Virus genome (UHGV): UHGV-0206453
Length of the DNA: 38,658 bases
From: a virus
Reading direction: 5' to 3' (one strand)
Shown here piece by piece: positions 50 through 38,380 of the stretch (positions within the stretch are counted from its first letter, which is position 1; each line of letters begins with the position of its first letter). Made by a program: the position numbers and the translations under genes. Under the pieces are notes generated by a model. It worked only from the letters and a program-made list of their open reading frames with translations, had not been told where the DNA came from and did not search any database.

Positions 50-520
50 CTAATAAAATACCCAATTTTCTGTTTCTTGGTTGTGTCCAAAGTTATATTC
101 AATATCTGGTGTTGATGTATCAATATTTTTCATCCCATCAACAAGAGTTGATACAACAGCCAAATCTTGTTTTATTCTCATTAAATGGTATTTCTTCCGG
201 CGCAATAAACTTTCAATGGCAAGTTTCTTCGTTGGGAATGCAAAAGATCTTTCTGCATTTTTTGCTACTTTCTTAATTGCATATCTATTTCTCTTTTGTT
301 TCCATTCCTGTAACCACTGATTTGGTGCTGGTTTAAAATTAACAATCCAATGCGCAGGAACCAACCATGCATAATGCTCTGTCTGATGAAAAGCTATATA
401 TTGAAGTGCGAATATTTTGATTCCATCTTCTTCAACTGTCGCCTGGAATCTCCAGAAAACAGGCATTCCATCATGTTCAGTTTCTGATTCAGGAAAAGGT
501 ACGCTCCATGATTTTGTCAT
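50..520 (-). CDS. hypothetical protein (156 aa), translationally coupled to N; 3' two-thirds of gene strongly AT-rich
   Basis: ORF track 50..520; ATG 8 nt after N stop, preceded by GGTGAG; no family recognised; sits where lambda/P22 carry ral/sieB-type accessory genes. Confidence 0.55.
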   Translation of the reverse strand: MTKSWSVPFPESETEHDGMPVFWRFQATVEEDGIKIFALQYIAFHQTEHYAWLVPAHWIVNFKPAPNQWLQEWKQKRNRYAIKKVAKNAERSFAFPTKKLAIESLLRRKKYHLMRIKQDLAVVSTLVDGMKNIDTSTPDIEYNFGHNQETENWVFY

Positions 521-528
521 ATCTCACC

Positions 529-855
529 TCAAATAAGTGGTTTGCTGCCTAATTTCATTTTCTGGCGACCAACACAAGTCACACCCATTTCACTGCGTGG
601 CTTGCTGTACCATGTGCGCTGATTCTTGCGCTCAATACGTTGCAGGTTGCTTTCAATCTGTTCGTGGTATTCAGCCAGCACCGTAAGGTCTATCGGATTC
701 AGTGCGCTTTCTACTCGTGATTTCGGTTTGCGATTCAGCGAGAGAATAGGGCGGTTAACTGGTTTTGCGCTTACTCCAACCAACAGGGGATTTGCTGCTT
801 TCCATTGAGCCTGTTTCTCTGCGCGACGTTCGCGGCGGCGTGTTTGTGCATCCAT
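529..855 (-). CDS. N: antitermination protein N
   Basis: Internal ATG of ORF 529..987 with AGGAG RBS; protein MDAQTRRRERRAEKQAQWKAANPLL... matches lambda N (arginine-rich motif) nearly residue for residue. Confidence 0.9.
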   Translation of the reverse strand: MDAQTRRRERRAEKQAQWKAANPLLVGVSAKPVNRPILSLNRKPKSRVESALNPIDLTVLAEYHEQIESNLQRIERKNQRTWYSKPRSEMGVTCVGRQKMKLGSKPLI

Positions 856-1012
856 CTGGATTCTCCTGTCAGTTAGCTTTGGTTGTGTGTGGGAGTCGTA
901 GTCCTGAACGAAAACACCCCGCAATGGCACATTGGCAGCTAATCCGGATTCGCACTTCCGGCCAATGCTTCGTTTCGTATCACACACACCAAAGCCTTCT
1001 GCTTTGAATGCC

Positions 1013-1043
1013 GCCCTTCTTCAGGGCTTAATTTTTAAGAGCG
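1013..1043 (-). promoter_or_regulatory. nutL (boxA CGCTCTTA, boxB GCCCTGAAGAAGGGC hairpin)
   Basis: Minus-strand reading gives CGCTCTTAAAAATTAAGCCCTGAAGAAGGGC between pL and N, as in lambda. Confidence 0.75.
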
Positions 1044-1081
1044 TCACCTTCATGGTGGTCAGTGCGTCCTGCTGATGTGCT

Positions 1082-1144
1082 TAGTATCACCGCCAGTGGT
1101 ATTTATGTCAACACCGCCAGAGATAATTTATCACCGCAGATGGT
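1082..1144 (-). promoter_or_regulatory. pL promoter with operators oL1, oL2, oL3
   Basis: Three 17-bp lambda-type operator sites TATCACCGCCAGTGGTA, CAACACCGCCAGAGATA, TATCACCGCAGATGGTT; minus-strand -35 TTGACA and -10 GATACT. Confidence 0.85.
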
Positions 1145-1294
1145 TATCTGCATGTTTTTTATATAGATTTATTTTTTGCAGGGTTGTGTGGATTGGGAAG
1201 GTGATCGAGAGATCTGAATTGCGATGTTTAGTGAGTTGTATCTATTAATTTTGAAATAAATACAATTGGTTATGCGTTTTTTGGGGGGCGTTAG

Positions 1295-1323
1295 GCAAAG
1301 AAAACCCGGCGCTGAGGCCGGGG
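1295..1323 (-). terminator. rho-independent terminator downstream of the rex-position gene
   Basis: Minus-strand hairpin CCCGGC-ctcagc-GCCGGG followed by TTTTCTTTG, 9 nt after stop of CDS 1332..2267. Confidence 0.5.
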
Positions 1324-1331
1324 CAATAAAG

Positions 1332-2267
1332 TTATTCTGCGTCAATATCTTCTACGGTTAGTAGAGGGTGTACCTTATCAAGCAATTGGATGAAATCTTC
1401 ATAAGTATCGCTTGCTTGCATGAGTGTTGTTACCCCTGTAAGTCTCTTTTGAAGAAGACCATATCCAGTTCCCTCTGATAGAAACTGATGCATTTTTGCA
1501 CCTGCCTTTTTTGCTTTTGCTCTTTCTTCCTTTAGCGCATTTCTTAGCTCTGGTGCCATGCGGTCATAAGTTATGTTATTCACAAGATGACCAAAGTATT
1601 GCGGTCTCCGCATGTTTGCTTTGAATGGGACTCCTCTGAGTCTACATAACTCCTCAAAGAATTCTGGCGGATATGTGCTTACCCATGGTCGCATTTCTTT
1701 AGCGATGAATTGCTCAAGGAGTTTTGCCAGTTCATCGCGCTCTCGTTCTTTTTGGTATCCAGTCGCTTCATCAACGAGCGCAACGGCGCCAACTCTAGCT
1801 AGAGCTTTATAGAGCGCTTTGGCTTTTGCAGCTGTATTCAAGTGATGCTTTTGTCGTAGGGCTCCATCCCTCTCAGCATCTGTCCATGCCTCGCAAAGCG
1901 CTGGTAGCATAGTAACGTCAATGCCATAAGCGACACCTGCACCTGATGTATTTTTATATACAATTGGTTCTGCTAGCGCTTCTCTTAGTTCATCGGAAAT
2001 ATATGGCTGAAGCTCATTTGCTTGGAGAACATATGGTAATTGACCTGGCTTCCCATTTGGGACCCATCTTGGCATTTTTGAGCCAACAGATACACCGAAT
2101 GTTTCTGCCAATCCATTTGCACCTTGCATTGAAACCACTCTGCGACCATCAGGCAAAACAGCACAAGAAACACCTGTCGCCATTAATCCTGTGTGAGTTG
2201 GCTTTGGAGCTGATCTAACGATTGCTGACATTGCTGCTGCTTTTTGAGCTCGTTTTTTAGTATCCAT
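1332..2267 (-). CDS. hypothetical 311-aa protein in rexAB-equivalent position (candidate superinfection-exclusion/abortive-infection protein; possibly P63C-like)
   Basis: Internal ATG of ORF 1332..2324 preceded by GGGGGA; not RexA/RexB; flanked by own AT-rich upstream region and terminators; family assignment from memory only. Confidence 0.7.
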   Translation of the reverse strand: MDTKKRAQKAAAMSAIVRSAPKPTHTGLMATGVSCAVLPDGRRVVSMQGANGLAETFGVSVGSKMPRWVPNGKPGQLPYVLQANELQPYISDELREALAEPIVYKNTSGAGVAYGIDVTMLPALCEAWTDAERDGALRQKHHLNTAAKAKALYKALARVGAVALVDEATGYQKERERDELAKLLEQFIAKEMRPWVSTYPPEFFEELCRLRGVPFKANMRRPQYFGHLVNNITYDRMAPELRNALKEERAKAKKAGAKMHQFLSEGTGYGLLQKRLTGVTTLMQASDTYEDFIQLLDKVHPLLTVEDIDAE

Positions 2268-2479
2268 AAATCCCCCATATGCTTGGTTATGGTGATGATA
2301 GCTTATTTCAAATAAGCAGGGCAATGATAGCTAAATCATCAATTAGCTACAAAATGCATCATTTTTATTTATCTCATTGATATGTATATATTTATCGATA
2401 AAATATTTTTAGCTATTCTGTGATTAAGCTAAATATCAATGCTAATTAATGCGTTAGCACAATGTGTGGATCACTACCA

Positions 2480-2506
2480 ATAAAAAAGGCCGCACTTCTG
2501 CGGCCT
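2480..2506 (-). terminator. rho-independent terminator immediately after cI
   Basis: Minus-strand GGCCGCA-gaagt-GCGGCC hairpin followed by TTTTTTATT, directly after cI stop. Confidence 0.6.
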
Positions 2507-2510
2507 TTCA

Positions 2511-3227
<717 letters not shown>

Positions 3228-3233
3228 TTAAAT

Positions 3234-3299
3234 CTATCACCGCAAGGGATAAATATCTAACACCGTGCGTGTTGACTATTTTACCTCTAGCGGTGATAA
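3234..3299. promoter_or_regulatory. oR3-oR2-oR1 operators with divergent pRM and pR promoters
   Basis: TATCACCGCAAGGGATA, TAACACCGTGCGTGTTG, TACCTCTAGCGGTGATA; pR -35 TTGACT and -10 GATAAT; GGAGG RBS before cro. Confidence 0.85.
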
Positions 3300-3315
3300 T
3301 AGTTGCATGTACTAA

Positions 3316-3525
<210 letters not shown>

Positions 3526-3532
3526 ATAACCC

Positions 3533-3563
3533 CGCTCTTACACATTCCAGCCCTGAAAAAGGG
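3533..3563 (+). promoter_or_regulatory. nutR (boxA CGCTCTTA, boxB GCCCTGAAAAAGGGC)
   Basis: Canonical lambda nutR boxA/boxB directly after cro stop. Confidence 0.75.
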
Positions 3564-3643
3564 CATCAAATTAAACCACACCTATGGTGTATGCATTTAT
3601 TTGCATACATTCAATCAATTGTTATCTAAGGAAATACTTACAT

Positions 3644-4234: not shown

Positions 4235-5182
4235 ATGAGCAATACAGCAAAAATCTACGATTTCAGCGCCGCACACGAGCGCAGGAGCAACAGGATGGAG
4301 AACCAGAAAACTGGTTACATTCCGTTGTACCGGAGCATTCTGAAACAGTCATGGGCGAAAGATGTTTATCTTCGCACCCTGTGGGAAAACCTTCTCCTGA
4401 ATGCCGCCAGAAAGCCATACAAAGCGAATTTCAAAGGTCATGAATGGCATCTGCAACCCGGTCAACTGGTTGTGACAGCAGCTGATTTAGGTCTTCAGTT
4501 ATGCGACAGGCATGGCAAGCCAGCAAGCCGCGATCAGGTTGAGCGGATGCTTCAGGTTTTTGTGAAAGAGGGGATGATCACCATTGATGGAGAGAAGCAA
4601 AAAGGTCGTGTGATCACCATCACAAATTACCATGAATATGCTCAAAAAATGGACAATTCACCCGCACATGAAGCCGCACAAACAACCGCACATGACGCCG
4701 CACATGACGAAGCCAGTAATGGCGCGGCTTTCAGCGTACATGCCGCACATGAAAGCGCACATGAAGCCGCACAAACAACCGCACATCATGAACAAGAAGG
4801 TATTAACAAGAATATAAATAATACCCCCCTACCCCCCAATGGGGGAGGCGATGGGCAGGTTAAACCTGAACGTCGCAAGGCAGAACGAATCGATTACGAA
4901 TCCTTCCTGAACGCCTACAACACCGAAGTCGGTGACAGACTTCCACACGCTGTTGCGGTCAACGAGAAACGCAAACGCCGCCTGAAGAAAATCATCCCGC
5001 AACTGAAAACGCCAAACGTGGACGGTTTCAGAGCGTATGTCAGGGCGTTTGTGCATCAGGCCAAGCCGTTTTACTTCGGAGACAACGACACGGGCTGGAC
5101 GGCAGATTTTGATTACCTGCTGAGGGAAGATTCGTTAACGGGAGTACGGGAAGGGAAGTTTGCAGACAGGGGGATTGCATGA
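4235..5182 (+). CDS. replication initiator, lambda O / P22 gp18 family, with internal origin repeats
   Basis: 315 aa; N-terminus [10 protein letters not shown] resembles lambda O MTNTAKILNF; central repeat-encoded [17 protein letters not shown] segment; followed by helicase gene. Confidence 0.8.
4662..4790. repeat. two clusters of four 12-bp iterons (CCGCACATGAnn) inside the initiator gene; putative replication origin
   Basis: ccgcacatgaag/ccgcacaaacaa/ccgcacatgacg/ccgcacatgacg at about 4662-4709 and a similar set at about 4743-4790, followed by AT-rich stretch and C6/G6 inverted repeat. Confidence 0.7.
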
Positions 5183-26533: not shown

Positions 26534-28530
26534 TGGCTAAAGCATGGAAAGATGTTATCGCCTCTCCACAGTATCAGGCGTTAGCACCAGAACAAAAAGC
26601 GCAGGCTCAGGAGCAATACTTCAATGAAGTCGTGGCCCCGCAAGCCGGAGAAAATGCAGAGCAGGCTAAGCAAGCTTTCTATGCTGCCTATCCATTGCCA
26701 TCTGTGCAGCCAGTGGAGACACAACAACCAGAAGCACAGCAACAACCACAGCAAAGTGGATTTATGTCTGATCTTGGTGAAGCCGTGAAAGAAACTGGTC
26801 GCGGACTGGTGCAGGCTGGCGTGAACGTGGCAAACATACCTGCATCAGTTGCCGATGCTGTAACAAGCGCGGCGGCATGGGCTGGCGGTAAACTCGGTAT
26901 TGGCGATGGTACATATCAACCAGCGCCACGAGTAACAACGCAGGGATTAGAGCAGGACTTTGGCCTTCAGCAAGGTGCGCTGACTCCACAAACGACAGAG
27001 GGAAGGGTATTTGCTGAAGCATTGCCTTACCTCACTCCTGCTGGCGTTGAGAGAGCGGCGGTACAGGCACCAACACTTGCTGGTCGAATTACTCAGGGGG
27101 CAACTCGCCTTCTAGCAGAAAACGCAGTTGGATCACTTGCTGCAAATAGTGCGAAAGATGATGCGGAAGCACTCGCCACCGATTTAGGCGTTGGTGTACT
27201 TGCTGGCGGTGCTATTAACGCTGCCGGACGTGGATTAGGTGCAGCTTATCGTGGCGTTCGTGGTGCTATCGCGCCAGAAGCGCAGCAGGCTATCAGATTT
27301 GCAGAGCGTGAAGGAGTTCCTCTGCACACCACAGACCTGTTACAACCGACTTCCCGCATCGGGAAAATGGCGCAAACGACAGCAGAAAATATCCCTCTGG
27401 CTGGAACAAGCGGAATGAGAGCAACGCAACAGGAAGCGAGAAGCCAGTTGGTTCAGAGATTTGCTGATAAATTCGGTGAGTATGATCCAGCGGTTGTTAT
27501 TGACAGCCTTAAAGCGAAAACATCAGGAATTCGTCGCGCCGCCGGCAATCGACTGGAGCAGGTTCAGAATGCTATGGCTGGAGTAAACATTCAGCCTGCG
27601 CGAGCAATTCAGCAGATTGATACAGAAATATCTAACCTGCAGAAGCTTGGTAAGGTTGCTGATAACGAGACTATTTCAAAACTTCAGTCATATCGTGATG
27701 AGCTTGTTCGCAATGCTGGCCCTGATGGTCCGGTAAATCTGGATTTGAAGCAATTAAGCGACCTGCGCAGCCAGTTCAGAATGGACGTGAAGGGTGAGCG
27801 ACCAGTGTTACCAAACCGTTCCGATGCCGCCATTCAGCGCGTTTACAAGGCAATGACTGACGATATCAATGGTGCCATTGGTCAGAATCTTGGCAACGAT
27901 ACTCTCCGTAAATATCAGCAGGCCAATGCCGTCTACGCTGACGAAGCGGCGAAACTAAAGAATACCAGGCTGAAGAATGTTCTCATGAAAGGCGACCTGA
28001 CGCCGGAAGTTGTCAACAACATGCTATTCAGCAAGAACAAATCGGAAATTAAGACGCTGTATAACTCAGTTGGTCGTGTTGGCAGGGCGCAAATGCGCAA
28101 TGGCATCATTGGAAAGGCGATGGAGAAATCAGGTGGTTCCCCTGACCAGTTCCTTCGACAGCTTAACATCCTGCAAGACCAGACTGGCATCACATTTAAA
28201 GGTCAGGATGCTGCTTATCTGAAAGGATTGAAAAACTACCTGCAATCCACGCAGCAGGCTGCAAAAGCGGCAGTAACAACACCAACAGGGCAGCAAACCA
28301 TCCCGTTCATTATCGGATATGGGACGGCAATGAACCCGGCGACAACTGGTGCAGCAGTAAGCTACGGACTTCTTACTCGCGCCTATGAGAGCGAACCATT
28401 CAGAAATGCAATGCTCCGAATGGCAAATACCCCACGCGGATCAACATCGTTTGAGAAAGCCATGCAGCAGGCGCAAAAGGCCATTAACGCCCTGACTCAG
28501 GGTGCCAAGTCTGATGCGTTGTCATGGTAA
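26533..28530 (+). CDS. ejection protein (P22 gp16-like)
   Basis: 665 aa, last gene before tailspike as in P22. Confidence 0.7.
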   Translation: MAKAWKDVIASPQYQALAPEQKAQAQEQYFNEVVAPQAGENAEQAKQAFYAAYPLPSVQPVETQQPEAQQQPQQSGFMSDLGEAVKETGRGLVQAGVNVANIPASVADAVTSAAAWAGGKLGIGDGTYQPAPRVTTQGLEQDFGLQQGALTPQTTEGRVFAEALPYLTPAGVERAAVQAPTLAGRITQGATRLLAENAVGSLAANSAKDDAEALATDLGVGVLAGGAINAAGRGLGAAYRGVRGAIAPEAQQAIRFAEREGVPLHTTDLLQPTSRIGKMAQTTAENIPLAGTSGMRATQQEARSQLVQRFADKFGEYDPAVVIDSLKAKTSGIRRAAGNRLEQVQNAMAGVNIQPARAIQQIDTEISNLQKLGKVADNETISKLQSYRDELVRNAGPDGPVNLDLKQLSDLRSQFRMDVKGERPVLPNRSDAAIQRVYKAMTDDINGAIGQNLGNDTLRKYQQANAVYADEAAKLKNTRLKNVLMKGDLTPEVVNNMLFSKNKSEIKTLYNSVGRVGRAQMRNGIIGKAMEKSGGSPDQFLRQLNILQDQTGITFKGQDAAYLKGLKNYLQSTQQAAKAAVTTPTGQQTIPFIIGYGTAMNPATTGAAVSYGLLTRAYESEPFRNAMLRMANTPRGSTSFEKAMQQAQKAINALTQGAKSDALSW

Positions 28531-28720: not shown

Positions 28721-31099
28721 ATGACTAATATAACACCAAATGTGGTTATAGGAATGCCTTCGCAACTCTTCACTATGGCGCGTTCTTTTAAAGCCGTAGC
28801 CAATGGCAAAATTTATATCGGTAAAATTGATACTGACCCGGTAAATCCTGAAAACCAGATTCAGGTTTATGTAGAGAACGAAGACGGTTCTCACATTCCT
28901 GTTGCACAGCCAATCATCATTAACGCTGGCGGATATCCGGTATATAACGGACAGATTGCCAAATTCGTTACTGTACAGGGCCATTCTATGGCTGTTTATG
29001 ATGCGTATGGTGCACAGCAGTTTTATTTTCCGAATACGCTGAAGTACGATCCAGATCAATTTAGCTACCAACTTTCATCTGCAAATGGTGCATATCTTGT
29101 TGGTTATGCAACGTCAACTGTTGGTGATTCACTTGATGATATTAATAATGGAAAAATAGTTACCAGTTTTGTGTCAGATTTGAATGCTGATAATAGGGAT
29201 ATTATTTTCGGGCAAACAGGTAATGTATATATACCAAGTAATATAACAGTAAGATGCAACCTTCTTCCTGACGATGACGTAACAAAATTAACTGGAGAAG
29301 GAAAAATTCTCACCAGAGATCCATGGGGGAATGAGCACATATTTGATGTTGGATTGGCAACTCATGGCAGTAAATTTACATGCAGTGGTGTTATTAATCA
29401 ACATGCCAGATTGAATGAATTATGTAGAGTTGGAATTGTTGGAGACTCAATCACTGACGGCGCATACGGTGCTGGATGGTCAGCTAATCCAACCGATTCT
29501 AATGGTGACCTATCTTCAACTAACTACGATCACAATAGTAATGGTGGTTCAGGTTCTTGGTTTCGCACATTTACCGACTGGCTTAACCGATTTACTAAAA
29601 ATAGTGCTTACATATTTAAGGCTGAAAACTGCGCATCTTCTGGAAAGCGACTCATTGACGGGTGGGCTAATCGTAACTTCGATCATGGATTTTTCAAAAA
29701 TACAGCATACGGAAATACCGCACCGGATGTGTGTTTTCTTTCAATGGGCGTAAATGATAATGGGCAGATTGATAGCATTGGATTTGATCAGTATCTATAT
29801 CGTTTCGAGCAATTTATTCGCAAAGCTTGGGGTTATGGATGCGCTGTCTGTGTCGTCTCAATGAACCAAAATGGATCACAATGGGGAGCCCTTGAAGCAT
29901 CAATTAAGAAGAGCATTGAAAGATTGATGCCTGCTGTAGAGTTTCTTGACCTATCACAGGCGGTTACAGATATGTACAGAGATGTTGGCAGTCACACTCT
30001 TCAGGAAATAGCTCGTAGACCTACAGATGGGACTTTTGATGCCACGCATTTTGCGCCTCTTGGACACCAATATATTGGTGCTTATGCCGCAAAGGAATTT
30101 ATGCCTTATCGAGTTCATATTGCGAAGAATGGTAACAACTTCGTACCGAATGTTGATAATGATATACAGGCTATCGGTTACCCTTCAGGCGCTATTTACA
30201 GCGTTAGCATGGAGAGATTGAGCGGTAACACATATCTTAATGGAATAACAGGGTGGGGAACGATAAAACCATCATCTGAAAATGTTACTATCCGTTACTT
30301 TATCTGGTGCGATACATCAGATTTATCAATGGTTATTTTCGAGCCTTATAACCCTTCCTATGTTACTGATGGCCGAGCCAACTCATTTTCAGTTATAGAG
30401 CAAGACATTCGTAATGGCGTATATATATCTGGCAACATTGCAAGCAACGGGATTGCGTCATTTACAAACAAGTTGACAACGAGAACAACAACCCTCAAAA
30501 AAGGATTGAATCAGATAGAAGTTATTTATGATGGTTCCCCATCAAAAGTATATCCACCAGGGCTGTTGTTTAGAGGAGATTTGAAAGAGTCATGCTCGCA
30601 AAATGCTTCAGTGTATCTTGCTGAAAATGCAATAAAAGGAGTATATGGGCAGGTAAGGGATAGAGCTGATTTGTTATTGTCGTATGCGGCAGAAACTGCT
30701 AATGATGAATCTCCTGATATGTATGGTGCAACTAAATCACCAAATGTTCAAAATGTTGCTTTATCATCAATTCCTGTTGGCTGCGGAGTGGTTTTTTACT
30801 ATAAACCTTCTTCACAAAGCGGAGTTGTTGCAAAGAGAACTTCAACTGGAATTGAGATTTCAACAATGCTTTTCGGCGAACTAACAGTTGTTGGAACTTT
30901 AACATGTGATGTTACAGGGGAAGTAATGCTCACAGCTAGTTTGAATGGCTTAACTCCCACAATAACAGTTAAGCCAACTACTGGTGCAACTGTTACTAAT
31001 CCTGTTCCCGGTTTCTCTGGTGGAAAAATAGCTCTAATAAACAAAGGAGCAAGTGGAAAAACATTATCTGTGAAATATTCTTCACACTATATTATTTAA
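28721..31099 (+). CDS. tailspike: P22-type head-binding N-domain fused to SGNH/GDSL esterase-type receptor domain
   Basis: Internal ATG of ORF 28619..31099; N-terminus [38 protein letters not shown] matches P22 gp9 head-binding domain; SGNH blocks [21 protein letters not shown]. Confidence 0.85.
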
Positions 31100-32878: not shown

Positions 32879-33178
32879 TTATTCGATGCGCACTCCTGGT
32901 ATTTCGCCTTTTGATATTGCTAAGTCATAAATTTGCGCGGCACTATACCCATCTCTCATCCATGAATCTAAGGCGCTAACAGCCTCGCTACGCTTTTTAT
33001 CTTCTCTCTCATTTTTGATATCAACGAGGACATCAACGCAATTAAGGCAAATGTGGATTTTGTCCTTACATTCGATCATGGCGGCTTTTCCATGATTTCC
33101 GCCACACAGTGAGCATAAATCTTCAGGGTCTGGCTGGTATTTCTGTAACGTTAGAGGGTTGAATGTTGAACAGACCAT
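32879..33178 (-). CDS. hypothetical Cys-rich protein (about 99 aa)
   Basis: Internal ATG of ORF 32879..33190 with GGAG RBS; CxxC...HxC...CxxC pattern suggests zinc binding. Confidence 0.5.
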   Translation of the reverse strand: MVCSTFNPLTLQKYQPDPEDLCSLCGGNHGKAAMIECKDKIHICLNCVDVLVDIKNEREDKKRSEAVSALDSWMRDGYSAAQIYDLAISKGEIPGVRIE

Positions 33179-34585: not shown

Positions 34586-35166
34586 TCCCCCTTACCGATG
34601 CCAGCGGCGCGGTCTATGCGTTCGATTTCAGCCAGAATTAAAGCCCCTGCTTTTACCAGGTTGCGACGGCGGGCATTTGGCTTCCACCATGAAGCATCCC
34701 AAGGCCACCCCCACGGCTTGCCACCATTGCGGTTAACAGTTCCTGTTTCGTTTATGTAACAAACCGCCGCCATTGCCAGTTCCCCGTTGCAGTGTTCGTC
34801 ATCATGCTCTGGCATCCACCCCTCAACCGATTGTTGCCGCTGGCGCTCTGCTATCACATCCAGAATTGCAGGATTGAATGCACGCGCTTCCAGTTCTGCA
34901 ATGCGCTTCTCTGCTGCTTCAAGCGCAACGCGCAGCCTCCCAACCGTAAGCGCAATATCCTCGTTCTCCTTGTCGCGGCGTTTGATGTATTGCTGGTTTC
35001 TTTCCCGTTCATCCAGCAGCGCCTGGGTTGAAAGCTGCGATATAACGAGGTTGTTCTCTGCGTTGTTCTGTCCATCAAAGCCGGTCCATTTGATAACGTC
35101 TTCACATCGTTTATCACCGGGCGTATGCACCGCATACGTACCAGTAACCCGTCGAAATAAATGCAA
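34582..35166 (-). CDS. hypothetical coiled-coil protein; N-terminus possibly frameshifted
   Basis: ORF begins with TTG; a 38-codon ORF in another frame with AAGGAG RBS and ATGA-coupled ATG lies just upstream. Confidence 0.45.
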   Translation of the reverse strand: MHLFRRVTGTYAVHTPGDKRCEDVIKWTGFDGQNNAENNLVISQLSTQALLDERERNQQYIKRRDKENEDIALTVGRLRVALEAAEKRIAELEARAFNPAILDVIAERQRQQSVEGWMPEHDDEHCNGELAMAAVCYINETGTVNRNGGKPWGWPWDASWWKPNARRRNLVKAGALILAEIERIDRAAGIGKGE

Positions 35167-35226
35167 CCCATTCTCCTTGTGTTGCCTGTTTTGCTAACTC
35201 ACGCAGTGCCTGATAGTCAATCTTGC

Positions 35227-35808
35227 TCATTGGATGACTCCTTTACGAAGCTGTTCGGCGATATCTTCGAGAACGCCATCAGAGAATGAGCGATCAAAAT
35301 CGCCTTCCGGCGCATTAGCCATAAACTCAGTAGAGGTAAGAATCATCCGGGCAATATCAGCGGCGTTCTTCGCAGTATCATCAATAAAACCAGCTTCCCA
35401 GGCAGCCAGCATTCTGTTCGCCACAAAGTAAGCGCCCTCCTTGCGTGCTTCAGTCTTCACTTCAGCCAAGAAAGCGTCGGTGACTTGGGTTTGCGGCATC
35501 CTTCCGTCTATTGCGCAGATATACGCATCAGATAGTTCACCCTGCTCGCCGTCAAACACGTAGCAACTCTGTACGATAAATTTATTCAGCCACGCATTCT
35601 CCACAGCCAGCGCCGCGCACTTGGCCTCAAGGTTATCAATCGTGATTCCAGCAGAACGACACTCCCGCAACGCCGTTTCCAGTTTTGATTCAAGTTCACC
35701 GAACTTACTCACCAGATATTCAGCGTTTGTTTCGTTAACCTTTAAATCTCGTGGGATGCATTTACCTTTCAGAAAACCATCCATCTCAATTAGTGACATT
35801 TGTTTCAT
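35227..35808 (-). CDS. hypothetical protein (about 193 aa)
   Basis: ATG at 35808 overlapping upstream TGA (ATGA coupling) within ORF 35227..35826. Confidence 0.55.
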
Positions 35809-35969
35809 TTCTTCCCACTCCGCCACATCGCATTCAGATATTTGTTGTCATTAACAGAACCGAAACTATTTCTTTTAAGCAATTCCTCTCTCGATGGCAT
35901 TGGCTTTACGCGTTGGCGAATAATCATTTCTGCCGGAAGAATGCCGGGATTGTATGCAAGTCCTCTCAT
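35805..35969 (-). CDS. hypothetical small protein (about 54 aa)
   Basis: Internal ATG of ORF 35805..36002 with GAGGA RBS 7 nt upstream. Confidence 0.4.
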
Positions 35970-35979
35970 GGTAAATTCC

Positions 35980-36276
35980 TCAGTCATTACTGATAGCGCC
36001 ATAGCGTGAGCGGTAATTACGCAGGCGCGTGTCGATATATTCAGGGAAGTGGGTATATGTGGCTTTGCGGAATGGTCGGATTGATGTTTCGTTTATTCGG
36101 TCTTTTTCCTGTTTTTCTGCGAGTTGTATATCGCGTCGGTACTTACGTTCTTCTTTTGTTTCTGGTGGCAGAGCAAGAAACGCGCCGAGATTATTCTTGA
36201 TATTTTCCAGCACCTCCGATACGGAATTGCCGGAACAGCGGCGCGGGTCATCCGCACCATACAGAGGCGCTGGCAT
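35980..36276 (-). CDS. hypothetical protein (98 aa)
   Basis: ORF track; AGGAGA RBS. Confidence 0.5.
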
Positions 36277-36292
36277 ATTTTTCTCCTGTTGA

Positions 36293-36841
36293 TTATTTAG
36301 CTAATTTTTTCCAGATTGCTGAAACGTATTTGGCTTGGTGGATGGCATCATCAAGCGCGTTGTGGCGAGTTCCTTTGAATGGCATATCTCGCTTAGGGTC
36401 GAATCCTATTACCTTTCCAAGCTCGACGATTGTTCTTACGTCGCGGTCATTCCACCACTGCCACGGAACTGGCTGCCCTGTCAGCGAATAACTGTTGCGG
36501 AGAATAACGCAGTCAAATGATGCTCCATTCCCCCAAACCTGAACGAATTTGTGGTTAGCGTTCTTTATGATGAATTCAGATAACCATGAAAGAGCCGTTG
36601 AAAGCTCCTGAGTGTTGCTGGTTAGCGATTTTCTGGCTTCTTCACTCTGTTCCATCCACCATAAAATCGTTGAAGCGTCAGGACGCGCCCGATATCGCAT
36701 TGATGACTCAAGCGAGATATTTACCGAGAACTCTTCTCCTGTTTCTCCGGTATTCGGGTCAAAGAACACCGCCCCAATAGAAATAACAGGCGCGTATGGC
36801 CCGTTGCCCATTGTTTCAAGGTCAACCATTAAGTGATTCAT
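36293..36841 (-). CDS. DnaQ-like (DEDD) 3'-5' exonuclease
   Basis: 182 aa; MVDLETMG exo I motif, later H..ALDDA-type motif; AAGGA RBS. Confidence 0.7.
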   Translation of the reverse strand: MNHLMVDLETMGNGPYAPVISIGAVFFDPNTGETGEEFSVNISLESSMRYRARPDASTILWWMEQSEEARKSLTSNTQELSTALSWLSEFIIKNANHKFVQVWGNGASFDCVILRNSYSLTGQPVPWQWWNDRDVRTIVELGKVIGFDPKRDMPFKGTRHNALDDAIHQAKYVSAIWKKLAK

Positions 36842-36849
36842 GTAAGTCC

Positions 36850-37365
36850 TTAAATTGCGTGAATAGCGTGACGAGGGAAGGGGAGAGTTACTGGTGCAAA
36901 GGGTATATCGTCGTCAAAATCCATAGGTGGTTCGCTGTGATTCCCTTGCTGCTGAGGTTGCTGTCTTTGTTGCTGACCGTTATTTCGCTGAGGTGAAGAC
37001 TGTTCATTGCCTCCTTGCTTGCCACCAATCATTTGCATAGTTCCACCAACGCCCACGATGACTTCAGTAGTGAACCGATCCTGTCCGCTTTGATCCTGCC
37101 ATTTTCTTGTCCGCAATTTGCCTTCAAGATAAACCTCAGAGCCTTTTCGCAGATATTCGCTGGCAATTTCTGCCAGTTTCCCGCTCATTACCACGCGGTG
37201 CCACTCCGTCTGCTCCTTTTGCTCTCCAGTTTGCTTATCACGCCATTGTTCTGACGTAGCAACTGTAAGGTTTGCAAATGCCGTTCCTGATGGTGAATAT
37301 CTGATTTCTGGATCATGCCCAAGGCGACCAATAATGATCACCTTATTTACGCCTCTGCTTGCCAT
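36850..37365 (-). CDS. ssb: single-stranded DNA-binding protein
   Basis: 171 aa; [23 protein letters not shown]...TEWHRVV...[11 protein letters not shown] closely matches E. coli SSB including acidic tail. Confidence 0.9.
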
Positions 37366-38073
37366 TTATGCCGCCTGTTTTAGTTCGTTAACTCTGATGT
37401 TCATTACCTGAACGCATTTAGCCTGCGCCTCCTCATTTCCAGCCATTAATTGCCAGTCACGCTGATAACGCTCGATGAGTTTTTTCTTATCAGTTTCTTT
37501 CGATGCATAATCGCTGAAGTCTTTCAGGATTTGTTCGCAGTCAACCGATGGAGATTTCTGGTTGGTATTTTCTGGTGATGGTTTGTTATCTGATGCTGTG
37601 ATTGCCCATCCCGGCAGCGATGGAGGGAGCCAGTAAAATCCTGTTCCATCCTTCAGTTTTGCCCTGTGCCACCCCTGCTTTTTATCGAGAGATGTTTGTG
37701 CGAAACCTTCCTCAAGGTTATACAGATACCGACCGATTCCCCACTGAACGGCAGCGCGCTTCATTGCACCGGAACGACCACCTTTGACGGCTTCTACCTG
37801 CGTGTTTTCAGCAGCATCCCATTTGGTTACCCATTCGGAATCAATCTTGATTGATATGCCGCATTCAACTCCGCCGTTGTTGGGAATATCGCGGTATTCA
37901 TTGCGCCATCCTGCTTTGCCGCAAACATCGTCCAGGCGTTTCATGATTGCCCGGTTCGTGACATAAGCCAGCACCATAGCCCACACTTTGCCATCGCGTG
38001 TTTTACCGCTTTGCTGTATTCGCCATTCGATATCTTCAGGGCTGAATGGCTCATCGAATTTGTTCAAATCCAT
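37366..38073 (-). CDS. single-strand annealing recombinase, Rad52-like core with P22 Erf-like C-terminus
   Basis: 235 aa; C-terminal ILKDFSDYASKETDKKKLIERYQRDWQL...CVQVMNIRVNELKQAA matches P22 Erf C-terminus; GAGGTG RBS. Confidence 0.8.
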   Translation of the reverse strand: MDLNKFDEPFSPEDIEWRIQQSGKTRDGKVWAMVLAYVTNRAIMKRLDDVCGKAGWRNEYRDIPNNGGVECGISIKIDSEWVTKWDAAENTQVEAVKGGRSGAMKRAAVQWGIGRYLYNLEEGFAQTSLDKKQGWHRAKLKDGTGFYWLPPSLPGWAITASDNKPSPENTNQKSPSVDCEQILKDFSDYASKETDKKKLIERYQRDWQLMAGNEEAQAKCVQVMNIRVNELKQAA

Positions 38074-38081
38074 AATTCACC

Positions 38082-38270
38082 TCAGAATGGTAATTCGGAT
38101 GGGGAGGAAAGAAATTCGCGCTCATTCATGCGCTCTCTTTGTGCTTGCCATAAACAAAGTTGTTTCTTTGATTTATCTCCCGCTTTACGCCAGTAACGAG
38201 CCTCAGCAATGTGATATTCTCTTTTTAATCGACTTAACTCTGGAGTTTTCGCCAGCTCTACCGGAATCAT
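38082..38270 (-). CDS. hypothetical small protein (about 62 aa)
   Basis: ATG overlapping kil stop (ATGA) with GGAGG RBS within ORF 38082..38282. Confidence 0.5.
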   Translation of the reverse strand: MIPVELAKTPELSRLKREYHIAEARYWRKAGDKSKKQLCLWQAQRERMNEREFLSSPSELPF

Positions 38271-38380
38271 TTTGACCTCCATTTTCTGTAGGCTTCGACG
38301 GCCTCACGAAACATCTTTTCATCGCCAATAAAAGTGGCGATAGTGAATTTAGTCTGAATAGCCATAAGTGTTTTATCCAT
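38267..38380 (-). CDS. kil: Kil-like host division inhibitor (37 aa)
   Basis: Internal ATG of ORF 38267..38506; MDKTLMAIQTKFTIATFIGDEKMFREAVEAYRKW resembles lambda Kil N-terminus. Confidence 0.6.
   Translation of the reverse strand: MDKTLMAIQTKFTIATFIGDEKMFREAVEAYRKWRSK

What the first reader, a model, noticed from the sequence alone, without database searches (positions are those of the whole stretch)
1295..2510. Self-contained single-gene cassette in the rexAB position between cI and pL
In lambda, the interval between cI and pL holds rexA-rexB, co-transcribed with cI. Here cI is followed at once by its own terminator (about 2480-2506). Then comes a roughly 180-bp strongly AT-rich region, a 311-aa gene (1332..2267, GGGGGA RBS) that is neither RexA nor RexB, and a second terminator (about 1295-1323). 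That is a promoter-gene-terminator moron placed in one of the best-known prophage defence hotspots (rexAB in lambda, sieB-type genes in P22, BstA-type genes in some Salmonella prophages, as I recall). The protein has no recognisable nuclease, ATPase or membrane signature by eye; a P63C-like assignment is a guess from memory. This is the strongest candidate in the window for an undescribed exclusion or abortive-infection function expressed from the lysogen.
Basis: partly seen in the sequence, partly recalled or inferred. Interest (0 to 1): 0.8.

Follow-up and report, generated by a model that had tools for sequence, protein, structure and literature searches.

The report
Autoregulated P63C gene cassette replacing rexAB
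In this P22-like phage with lambda immunity, the rexA-rexB genes are replaced by a single gene of the large, uncharacterised P63C family that brings its own terminator, promoter and palindromic operator sites. That makes it a good but untested candidate for a prophage-expressed DNA-binding exclusion protein.

Summary
An 1187-bp segment (1323-2509) replaces lambda rexA-rexB exactly, from the base after the cI stop codon to the base before the Timm homology.

The segment contains:
- a strong intrinsic terminator (2484-2509);
- a 216-bp leader of 29% GC;
- a 311-aa ORF (1332-2267, minus strand).

The protein is a bona fide P63C-family member (Pfam PF10546, phrog_2384). It is not RexA, RexB or BstA, it matches no PADLOC model and it has no solved structural relative.

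New here: the leader holds two exact GCTAA-N8-TTAGC dyads 111 bp apart, the only exact copies in 38.6 kb. Relatives in any genomic position carry a dyad at their own promoter. The dyad sequence falls into discrete classes that follow protein subfamily. This points to a sequence-specific DNA-binding protein that regulates its own promoter.

Homologues sit just downstream of repressors in lambdoid and P22-like prophages, in Achromobacter and in Streptococcus, and elsewhere in the lysogeny module in a Gordonia phage. This supports expression in lysogens.

A defence role is plausible by position and by a BstA-like two-domain layout, but it is unproven.

The parts
1323..2509 (-). Segment that replaces lambda rexA-rexB (1187 bp in place of lambda 35825-37225)
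   Evidence: blastn against lambda: window 554-1322 matches lambda 35062-35824 (92.5%) and window 2510-3600 matches lambda 37226-38316 (94.5%). Nothing between these matches.
2484..2509 (-). Intrinsic terminator directly after the cI stop codon; the 5' element of the cassette
   Evidence: Scan hit. dG -18.6 kcal/mol, z -5.2, followed by U6. The hairpin GG(T/C)CGC..GCGGCC plus T-run is conserved in front of P63C genes whose proteins are only 30-51% identical. It is absent between cI and the cargo gene in CL707 and BTP1.
2441..2458 (.). Distal dyad operator GCTAATTAATGCGTTAGC (GCTAA-N8-TTAGC)
   Evidence: One of only two exact matches in the 38,658-bp window. It sits 111 bp from the proximal dyad. 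The same 111-bp spacing occurs in L002, and in L007 and L008 with one mismatch.
2330..2347 (.). Promoter-proximal dyad operator GCTAAATCATCAATTAGC
   Evidence: Exact match. The arms are invariant and the spacers differ in six cassette copies: window, L002 and L005-L008.
2295..2324 (-). Candidate sigma-70 promoter TTGCCC-18-TATCAT, with a degenerate dyad GCTTATTTGAAATAAGC (2301-2317) in its spacer
   Evidence: Scan hit, 9 of 12. Class-A relatives have TTGACA or TTTACA, 17 nt, then TAAnnT at the same distance from the ATG, -57 to -27. A second possible promoter, TTGTAG-17-TATCAT (2352-2324), has the proximal dyad in its spacer (read from the sequence). Neither has been mapped.
2271..2276 (-). 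Shine-Dalgarno GGGGGA, 3 nt before the ATG at 2267-2265
   Evidence: Sequence. The aligned position holds AGGAAA in orthologues.
1332..2267 (-). 311-aa P63C-family protein: N-terminal alpha/beta domain (about 20-135), highly conserved middle helices with the VDEATGYQ motif (about 136-200), and the Pfam P63C domain (183-269)
   Evidence: Pfam PF10546, E 6.6e-23. phrog_2384, E 6e-106 over residues 4-306. AF2 model with pLDDT 76.9. Invariant residues from alignment A1.
1305..1322 (-). Timm, the backbone terminator shared with lambda. It ends the cassette transcript but lies in lambda-homologous DNA.
   Evidence: A Timm-type hairpin lies about 10 nt after the stop codon of P63C genes in L005-L009 and L011, and after bstA in BTP1.

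Best explanation
What it is (shown). A portable one-gene unit has replaced rexAB by exchange between two conserved slot boundaries: the last ~20 nt of cI and the Timm hairpin. Its order is terminator, leader, P63C-family gene.

How it is expressed (inferred from conservation). The strong terminator stops pRM and pRE transcripts right after cI. The gene is therefore not co-transcribed with the repressor, unlike rexAB and, presumably, bstA. It is read instead from its own sigma-70 promoter in the AT-rich leader.

That promoter is flanked and overlapped by GCTAA-N8-TTAGC dyads. Every branch of the family has such a dyad at its promoter, and the dyad sequence changes with the protein subfamily. 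The simplest reading is that the protein is a dimeric, sequence-specific DNA-binding protein that binds its own operators. Its variable N-terminal alpha/beta domain is the likely specificity domain. Two sites 111 bp apart may allow DNA looping. The result would be negative autoregulation and a steady low level of protein in the lysogen.

What it does in trans (inferred from position and analogy only). Most likely it interferes with superinfecting phages, as a DNA-directed exclusion or abortive-infection protein of the BstA type. The highly conserved middle and C-terminal part (VDEATGYQ..R motif plus P63C domain) would be the effector.

Confidence by step: about 0.7 for 'autonomous, self-regulated DNA-binding cassette expressed in lysogens'; about 0.35-0.4 for the defence function.
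For: Exact replacement of rexAB.

Cassette structure and mobility:
- The terminator is strong and conserved.
- The unit is found after repressors of at least three immunity types with the same 255-257-nt leader.
- It has also moved to a prophage end next to rexAB, still carrying ~20 nt of cI and a Timm-type hairpin.

Dyads:
- Two exact dyads lie only in the leader, with conserved arms, free spacers and conserved 111-bp spacing.
- Leaders of the family have dyads with arms of 7 bp or more in 70% of 64 cases. The figure is 10% for shuffled leaders and 15% for control windows.
- The dyads fall into discrete classes A, B, C, E and F regardless of genomic position.
- In classes B, E and F the dyad overlaps a good promoter, for example 933W TTGCAC-17-TATGAT and class F TTGCAA-17-TATAAT.
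- Classes E and F share 74% identity in the C-terminal part but only 41% in the N-domain.
- Some relatives carry an extra N-terminal Zn-ribbon (IS1595 type).

Lysogeny-module position:
- Directly after S24 repressors in Klebsiella, Salmonella SPN9CC, Achromobacter and at least 12 IMG/VR loci.
- After the repressor in S. pyogenes Javan515 and between the XRE regulator and int in a Streptococcus satellite.
- In the lysogeny module of Gordonia phage Petra.

Link to defence:
- The slot holds rexAB in lambda and bstA in BTP1 (PMC8585504).
- BstA has the same length and a two-domain plan. Its N-domain aligns weakly with ours: hhalign probability 21-30%, E about 1e-3, and the same order of secondary-structure elements.
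Against: - No transcript, binding or phenotype data exist for any family member in the literature searched.
- There is no hit to any of 5027 PADLOC models, and no nuclease, ATPase or membrane signature.
- The promoter in this window is weak by consensus (TTGCCC, 9 of 12), and promoter-like sites in the region are no more frequent than in shuffles (5 found, 5.1 expected).
- Dyad class does not track overall N-domain identity tightly: within class B the N-domains are only 42% identical. Relatedness among loci inflates the apparent co-variation.
- The 933W-type homologues lie in the nin region, co-oriented with early lytic genes. That would fit a role in the phage's own development.
- Similarity to BstA is below any safe threshold.
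- The dyad count includes some terminator hairpins.
Confidence: 0.4

Rival explanations
1. The protein regulates the phage's own development. It would be a KilA-N/Bro-N/antirepressor-like DNA-binding factor that modulates induction, replication or early transcription, and it just happens to sit in the permissive cI-N slot.
For: - The 36%-identical 933W homologue lies in the nin region, co-oriented with early genes and next to roi.
- Other homologues adjoin Bro-N, ANT or P22_AR genes.
- The family is a DNA-binding-type two-domain protein with its own operators.
- By recollection, Pfam traces the P63C domain to Iyer et al. 2002, a survey of DNA-virus transcription regulators. The paper could not be opened.
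Against: - Even in the nin region the gene keeps its own promoter and dyad. This suggests expression independent of the lytic cascade.
- The gene is dispensable: lambda-immunity phages carry rexAB, hicAB or other genes in its place.
- Only 2 of 5426 complete E. coli genomes have this cassette.
- The strongest positional signal is co-orientation with repressors in lysogeny modules across phyla.
Confidence: 0.22
2. It is a lysogenic-conversion transcription factor. The protein would bind host chromosomal sites that resemble its operator and reprogram host genes to the benefit of the lysogen. It would have no direct anti-phage role.
For: - It appears to be a sequence-specific DNA-binding protein, probably expressed in lysogens.
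- The phage's own genome has no other exact operator copy, so any further targets would lie elsewhere.
- bstA itself was first linked to virulence phenotypes (PMC8585504).
Against: - The operator classes differ between cassettes that live in the same host species: class A and class B both occur in E. coli. That is hard to reconcile with a conserved host regulon.
- The most conserved part of the protein is not the presumed DNA-reading domain.
- Host sites could not be searched because the pattern is too short for the collection scans.
Confidence: 0.13
3. It is not autonomous. The gene would be expressed by partial read-through from pRM, as rexAB is. The dyads would be sites for a host factor or recombination 'linker' sequences, and the AT-rich leader would be silenced by H-NS.
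For: - Promoter-like matches in the region are at chance level.
- The terminator and the cI 3' remnant look like conserved recombination joints.
- In S. pyogenes Javan515 the homologue follows the repressor by 35 nt, with no dyad.
Against: - The hairpin is a textbook intrinsic terminator.
- The dyads are also present where no repressor lies upstream (933W, L013, L014).
- The dyads change sequence with the protein subfamily while staying at the promoter. A host-factor site would not behave this way.
Confidence: 0.1
4. The dyads are a cognate self-immunity element in the manner of BstA's aba. The protein would attack replicating phage DNA, and it would be neutralised on the prophage's own induction because the amplified operator DNA titrates or switches it off.
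For: - Each subfamily has its own dyad sequence in its own locus. This parallels the cognate BstA-aba pairs, where aba is a 63-bp DNA element spanning the start of bstA (PMC8585504).
- The layout is two-domain, with a possible KilA-N-like N-domain.
Against: - The dyads sit at promoters, so plain autoregulation explains them.
- aba has terminal direct repeats, not dyads.
- No functional data exist.
Confidence: 0.15

Closest known systems
BstA (st313-td) of Salmonella prophage BTP1 and its family (Owen et al. 2021, PMC8585504)
   Same: - It occupies the same slot, directly downstream of and co-oriented with the prophage repressor, and is ended by the same Timm-type hairpin.
- It is a single gene of about the same size, 307 against 311 aa.
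- It has a two-domain plan with an N-terminal beta-beta-beta-alpha...beta-beta-alpha domain.
- There is a weak profile-profile match between the N-domains.
- Its locus carries a cognate DNA element.
   Different: - No sequence membership: our protein gives no hit to the PADLOC BstA model, whereas BstA scores 1.9e-124. BLASTP is not significant.
- The C-terminal domains differ: P63C (PF10546) against BstA-like C-terminal (PF26567).
- bstA has no terminator between it and cI. This cassette does, and it adds its own promoter and dyads.
- aba has direct repeats overlapping the start codon, not promoter dyads.
- An abortive-infection phenotype is shown for BstA and unknown here.
RexA-RexB of phage lambda
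   Same: Exactly the same genomic interval, from the cI stop codon to Timm, on the same strand. Both are expected to be prophage-expressed cargo.
   Different: - Lambda has two genes, co-transcribed with cI. Here there is one unrelated gene behind a terminator.
- No RexA or RexB Pfam match.
- No predicted membrane component.
P63C domain family (Pfam PF10546; phrog_2384), e.g. 933W L0095 (NP_049495) and Salmonella phage SPN9CC_0019
   Same: True homologues over nearly the full length, at 30-39% identity. All carry a promoter-proximal dyad. SPN9CC_0019 is also directly after cI, with the same terminator hairpin.
   Different: - This window's class-A subfamily (79-100% identity) has a different operator sequence and two sites 111 bp apart.
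- It is absent from all 50,697 deposited phage records at more than 60% protein identity, and its leader has no DNA match there.
- The 933W copy lies in the nin region.
Other cargo of the cI-N slot in wild lambda-immunity phages (CL707 orf CL70704, HK542/HK244 orfs, hicAB in mEp234/HK106; GenBank records of Degnan et al. 2007)
   Same: They share the same flanking homology (cI, Timm, OL, N) and show the same kind of mosaic replacement.
   Different: The genes are different. In CL707 the cargo follows cI by 86 nt, no terminator was detected there, and the record annotates only Timm.
KilA-N / Bro-N / APSES-type DNA-binding domain proteins of phages
   Different: No Pfam KilA-N or Bro-N hit in any of 72 full-length or 27 N-domain sequences. 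The fold matches are below a safe threshold.

Membership tests
P63C domain family (Pfam PF10546) | Score above the Pfam gathering threshold on the P63C model | tested here: met
   81.6 bits against a cutoff of 26.1, E 6.6e-23, residues 183-269. All 72 aligned homologues also match.
P63C domain family (phrog_2384, full-length architecture) | Full-length match including the N-terminal domain and the VDEATGYQ middle region | tested here: met
   phrog_2384, E 6.2e-106, residues 4-306 against profile 22-328 of 338. D166, E167, T169, G170, Q172 and R175 are invariant in A1.
BstA | Match to the BstA family profile (PADLOC PDLC02356) | tested here: not met
   0 PADLOC hits at E<=1. BstA of BTP1 scores 1.9e-124 on the same model.
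BstA | BstA-like C-terminal domain (PF26567) | tested here: not met
   Homologues of our protein carry only PF10546 in the precomputed Pfam column. BstA homologues carry PF26567. hhalign aligns only the N-terminal halves.
BstA | N-terminal KilA-N-like DNA-binding domain | tested here: inconclusive
BstA | Located directly downstream of, and co-oriented with, the prophage repressor | tested here: met
   The same holds for many homologues.
BstA | Abortive-infection phenotype, and suppression by a cognate DNA element (aba) in its own locus | not testable with these tools
   Subfamily-specific dyads exist in the locus, but their function is unknown.
RexAB | RexA (PF15969) and RexB (PF15968) proteins | tested here: not met
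   Pfam returns only P63C. There is no DNA homology to lambda 35825-37225.
KilA-N / Bro-N domain proteins | Pfam KilA-N (PF04383) or Bro-N (PF02498) match in the N-terminal domain | tested here: not met
   Neither model matched any of the 72 full-length members at E<=1 or the 27 N-domain segments at E<=10.
Moron (autonomous prophage-expressed transcription unit) | Own promoter upstream and terminator downstream | tested here: inconclusive
   A promoter-like element is conserved in position among class-A relatives, but it is weak here and unmapped. The downstream terminator is the shared Timm. The upstream terminator is cassette-borne.
Moron (autonomous prophage-expressed transcription unit) | Base composition distinct from neighbouring genes | tested here: not met
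   The gene is 44.2% GC and cI is 44.3%. Only the leader is deviant, at 29.2%.
Moron (autonomous prophage-expressed transcription unit) | Transcribed in the lysogen while lytic genes are repressed | not testable with these tools
   Only indirect evidence: position in the lysogeny module in several phyla.

The most novel reading that the evidence does not exclude
The P63C family (over 2000 clusters at 50% identity, in temperate phages of Proteobacteria, Firmicutes and Actinobacteria) would be a widespread, uncatalogued class of single-protein prophage defence. Each member would read a private palindromic DNA 'password' at its own locus. That site would both set the protein's level in the lysogen and exempt the carrier prophage from attack on induction. 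In effect this is a BstA/aba-like logic that has evolved with a different effector domain and with dyad operators.
Probability: 0.2. Interest if true: 0.75.

Novelty: new variant of a known kind. Interest (0 to 1): 0.5.

Why it matters
The interval between the repressor gene and N is where lambda keeps RexAB and BTP1 keeps BstA. Cargo there is expressed in every lysogen and often decides which other phages can grow.

This cassette belongs to a very large family: 2243 clusters at 50% identity have E<=1e-3. No function is recorded for it, and it is absent from defence catalogues.

The analysis turns 'hypothetical protein' into a concrete hypothesis that a few experiments could test: a self-regulated, sequence-specific DNA-binding protein with swappable operator specificities, placed in lysogeny modules across bacterial phyla.

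If it excludes phages, it adds a new defence family and a second example of protein-plus-cognate-DNA logic. If it does not, the matched operator-protein classes are still a ready-made set of orthogonal repressor/operator pairs, and a marker for tracing module exchange among lambdoid phages.

Tried and rejected
- Defence catalogues: PADLOC gave 0 hits for our protein and for the SPN9CC homologue. NCBIfam gave nothing meaningful.
- Direct identity with BstA: rejected by BLASTP and by the BstA HMM.
- Pfam on the N-domain alone: no KilA-N, Bro-N or ANT.
- N-domain profile search for other architectures: it found only short or stand-alone N-domain proteins with no Pfam annotation.
- Literature: 'P63C', 'P63C domain', 'PF10546', 'P63C'+'KilA-N', 'P63C'+'phage' and 'L0095' gave no functional study. 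Iyer et al. 2002 could not be opened.
- Known RNA families in 900-3400: none; the single sub-threshold hit was E 0.89.
- Leader peptides: there are only trivial ORFs of 33 aa or fewer.
- TAGCTA or TTAGCT as simple repeats: not enriched window-wide. The signal is in the spaced dyad.
- Upstream promoter TTGTAG-17-TATCAT as the conserved promoter: not conserved in L005-L008. It is kept only as an alternative.
- ATPase reading of the 'LVDEATG' motif as a Walker B: rejected, because there is no P-loop and the motif is predicted helical.
- One-mismatch dyads at 30191 and 32919 as extra targets: their number is compatible with chance.
Full report
SETTING. The window is a complete, circularly permuted P22-like (CUS-3-like) podophage genome that carries the lambda immunity region. 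On the minus strand lie N (529 to about 850), the pL-like promoter and OL (about 1083-1150), the gene in question (1332-2267) and cI (2511-3224). cro and cII follow on the plus strand.

OBSERVATION. blastn against lambda gives two blocks. Window 554-1322 equals lambda 35062-35824 (92.5% identity). Window 2510-3600 equals lambda 37226-38316 (94.5%). rexB ends at lambda 35825 and cI at 37227. So window 1323-2509 (1187 bp) replaces rexA-rexB to the base.

The replacing segment contains three elements:
- A hairpin at 2484-2509 with an 11-bp stem followed by U6 (dG -18.6 kcal/mol, z -5.2).
- A 216-bp leader of 29.2% GC.
- A 311-aa ORF with a GGGGGA Shine-Dalgarno sequence.

It is Timm and is annotated as such in phage CL707. 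The same hairpin type ends bstA in Salmonella phage BTP1. It also follows every enterobacterial P63C gene examined. Timm and the cI 3' end are therefore the two conserved boundaries of an exchange slot.

One locus shows this directly. In L005 the whole unit has landed outside the immunity region, next to Bro-N, rexB, rexA and dinI. It runs from the last ~20 nt of cI through the terminator, leader and gene to a Timm-type hairpin.

THE PROTEIN. It matches Pfam P63C (E 6.6e-23, residues 183-269) and phrog_2384 over its full length (E 6e-106, function unknown). PGAP already labels the 98%-identical ST131 copies 'P63C domain-containing protein'.

Distribution of the cassette and its family:
- This cassette is rare: 2 of 5426 complete E. 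coli genomes.
- No deposited phage has a protein more than 60% identical, and the leader has no DNA match in 50,697 phage records.
- Orthologues of 80-89% identity occur in Cedecea, Enterobacter, Yersinia, Pantoea, Serratia and Klebsiella.
- The family is very large: 2243 clusters at 50% identity have E<=1e-3, and 1370 have E<=1e-10.

The AF2 model (pLDDT 76.9) shows three regions:
- a confident N-terminal alpha/beta domain (about 20-135);
- a helical middle with the invariant VDEATGYQ..R motif;
- a helical C-terminal part.

COMPARISON WITH BstA. BstA (BTP1 st313-td) sits in the same slot and is 307 aa long. It has a KilA-N-like N-domain and a separate C-domain (PMC8585504). It scores 1.9e-124 on the PADLOC BstA model, whereas our protein scores nothing. 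BLASTP between the two is not significant.

Profile-profile comparison aligns only the N-terminal halves, at 21-30% probability (E about 1e-3). The shared pattern is ..VL.DG...L(S/T).RG(L/V)A...G.. followed later by ..(L/V)C....L. The AF2 models have the same order of elements, beta-beta-beta-alpha...beta-beta-alpha. I treat N-domain homology as possible but not shown. The C-domains are different families (PF10546 against PF26567). The protein is therefore not a BstA family member, although it may work in a similar way.

REGULATORY ANATOMY, THE MAIN NEW RESULT. The pattern GCTAA-N8-TTAGC has exactly two perfect matches in 38,658 bp. Both are in the leader, at 2330-2347 and 2441-2458, 111 bp apart. 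In six copies of the cassette the proximal dyad keeps its arms while its 8-nt spacer varies. The distal dyad keeps the 111-bp distance.

Just downstream lies the promoter-like TTGCCC-18-TATCAT (2324-2295). At the same distance from the ATG, class-A relatives have TTGACA or TTTACA, 17 nt, then TAAnnT. The spacer of that promoter contains a third, degenerate dyad (2301-2317).

Looking across 80 IMG/VR loci and others, nearly every family member carries a dyad 30-130 nt upstream of its start. This holds downstream of a repressor, in the 933W nin region and beside Bro-N genes. Arms of 7 bp or more occur in 70% of 64 leaders, against 10% of shuffled leaders and 15% of control windows. That count includes some terminator hairpins.

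The dyads fall into discrete classes:
- A: GCTAA-N8-TTAGC.
- B: TGCACG-N6-CGTGCA. This class includes 933W, Klebsiella and Chromobacterium.
- C: TGCAAGCA / TGCTTGCA. This class includes SPN9CC and Achromobacter.
- E: TTAGCATTATGCTAA.
- F: TTGCAA-N9-TTGCAA.

In classes B, E and F the dyad overlaps a good sigma-70 promoter, for example TTGCAC-17-TATGAT in 933W and TTGCAA-17-TATAAT in class F. The terminator hairpin GGTCGC..GCGGCC stays the same in front of class A, B and C genes that follow a repressor.

Between classes, the N-domain is the most divergent part (28-43% identity). The middle region is the most conserved (54-74%). Classes E and F share 74% identity in the C-terminal part but only 41% in the N-domain. 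Some relatives add an IS1595-type Zn-ribbon at the N-terminus.

These cassettes contain a single gene, and the operator sequence changes with the protein rather than with the host or the neighbouring genes. The most economical inference is that the protein binds its own promoter. This is an inference. The loci are phylogenetically related, within-class N-domain identity can be low (42% in class B), and no binding data exist.

CONTEXT. Homologues lie immediately downstream of, and co-oriented with, S24-type repressors in the following settings:
- three immunity types of Enterobacter-like prophages;
- Klebsiella;
- Salmonella SPN9CC;
- Achromobacter;
- at least 12 IMG/VR loci.

In S. pyogenes Javan515 the homologue lies between the repressor and int. 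In a Streptococcus satellite it lies between the XRE regulator and int. In Gordonia phage Petra it lies in the lysogeny module. This recurrent placement across phyla is the best available evidence for expression in the lysogenic state.

Unlike rexAB, CL707's cargo and bstA, the enterobacterial P63C cassettes are separated from cI by a strong terminator. Expression is therefore uncoupled from pRM and pRE.

MECHANISM PROPOSED. The steps are marked by their basis.
- Shown: rexAB has been exchanged exactly for a terminator-leader-gene unit.
- Inferred from conservation: cI transcripts stop at 2484-2509. The gene is read from its own promoter. The protein, probably as a dimer, binds the GCTAA-N8-TTAGC dyads through its N-domain and limits its own synthesis.
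- Inferred from position and analogy only: in trans it acts on incoming phage DNA, as exclusion or abortive infection in the BstA manner, with the conserved middle and P63C part as the effector.

Rivals are a regulator of the phage's own development (suggested by the nin-region copies), a host-directed conversion factor, and non-autonomous read-through expression. An aba-like self-immunity role for the dyads is a sub-variant of the defence reading.

NOVELTY AND SCORE. The slot and its mosaicism are known (PMC8585504, citing Degnan et al. 2007), and the domain family is named. What was not found described in the literature searched is any function for the family, its systematic promoter-dyad architecture with subfamily-specific sequences, or its insulated placement after repressors.

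I rate it a new variant of a known kind: prophage cargo in the repressor-proximal defence slot. Interest is 0.5. It is a well-defined and experimentally tractable candidate, but its defence role is unproven and finding an unknown gene in this hotspot is not in itself surprising.

Noticed in passing
L005 5715-6990 (Enterobacter-type prophage; NCBI GCA_032902325.1): The complete class-A unit has been transplanted outside the immunity region. It still carries the last ~20 nt of cI, the terminator, leader and gene, and a Timm-type hairpin. It lies after a tail-fibre gene and next to Bro-N, rexB, rexA and dinI.
   Followed up: partly
window 1305-1322; L010 (BTP1) 28087-28106; L004 (CL707) 1806-1827: The Timm hairpin (CCCGGC..GCCGGG plus TTTTCTTT) is conserved downstream of unrelated cargo (rexB, bstA, CL70704, P63C) in lambda-like and P22-like phages. 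It looks like a shared recombination boundary of the slot.
   Followed up: partly
L009 2632-3861 (Salmonella phage SPN9CC_0019): The deposited 409-aa CDS overlaps cI and runs through the conserved terminator hairpin (L009 2695-2711). Homology places the true start near 2809-2866. A second remnant of a cI 3' end (ATGTTTGGGTGATAG) lies after the real cI stop codon.
   Followed up: partly
window 30191-30208 and 32919-32936: One-mismatch copies of the class-A dyad lie inside or near the tailspike and int regions. Their number is compatible with chance: 4 found including the two exact ones, against 1.2 expected.
   Followed up: no
window 4235-5182, especially 4632-4817: The replication-initiator-like ORF has a His/Ala-rich repeated stretch ([16 protein letters not shown]...[16 protein letters not shown]). 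The underlying DNA repeats may be origin iterons.
   Followed up: no
window 2377-2404 (+ strand): The best promoter-like match in the leader (TTGATA-16-TAAAAT, 10 of 12) points towards cI, antisense to the cassette. It could be a chance match in AT-rich DNA or a divergent or antisense promoter.
   Followed up: no
window 50-520 (- strand): A 156-aa ORF lies directly downstream of N in the leftward operon, and it was not compared with anything here. In lambda the corresponding interval downstream of N holds sieB (opposite strand), orf28 and ral.
   Followed up: no
P0358, P0379, P0417 (family members of 420-460 aa): Some P63C-family proteins carry an extra N-terminal IS1595-type transposase zinc-ribbon. 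In P0417 it replaces the first ~75 residues of the usual N-domain.
   Followed up: partly
L098 3441-3477 (S. pyogenes phage Javan515): In this Gram-positive prophage the homologue follows the repressor by only 35 nt, with no terminator or dyad. It is probably co-transcribed with the repressor, unlike the enterobacterial cassettes.
   Followed up: no
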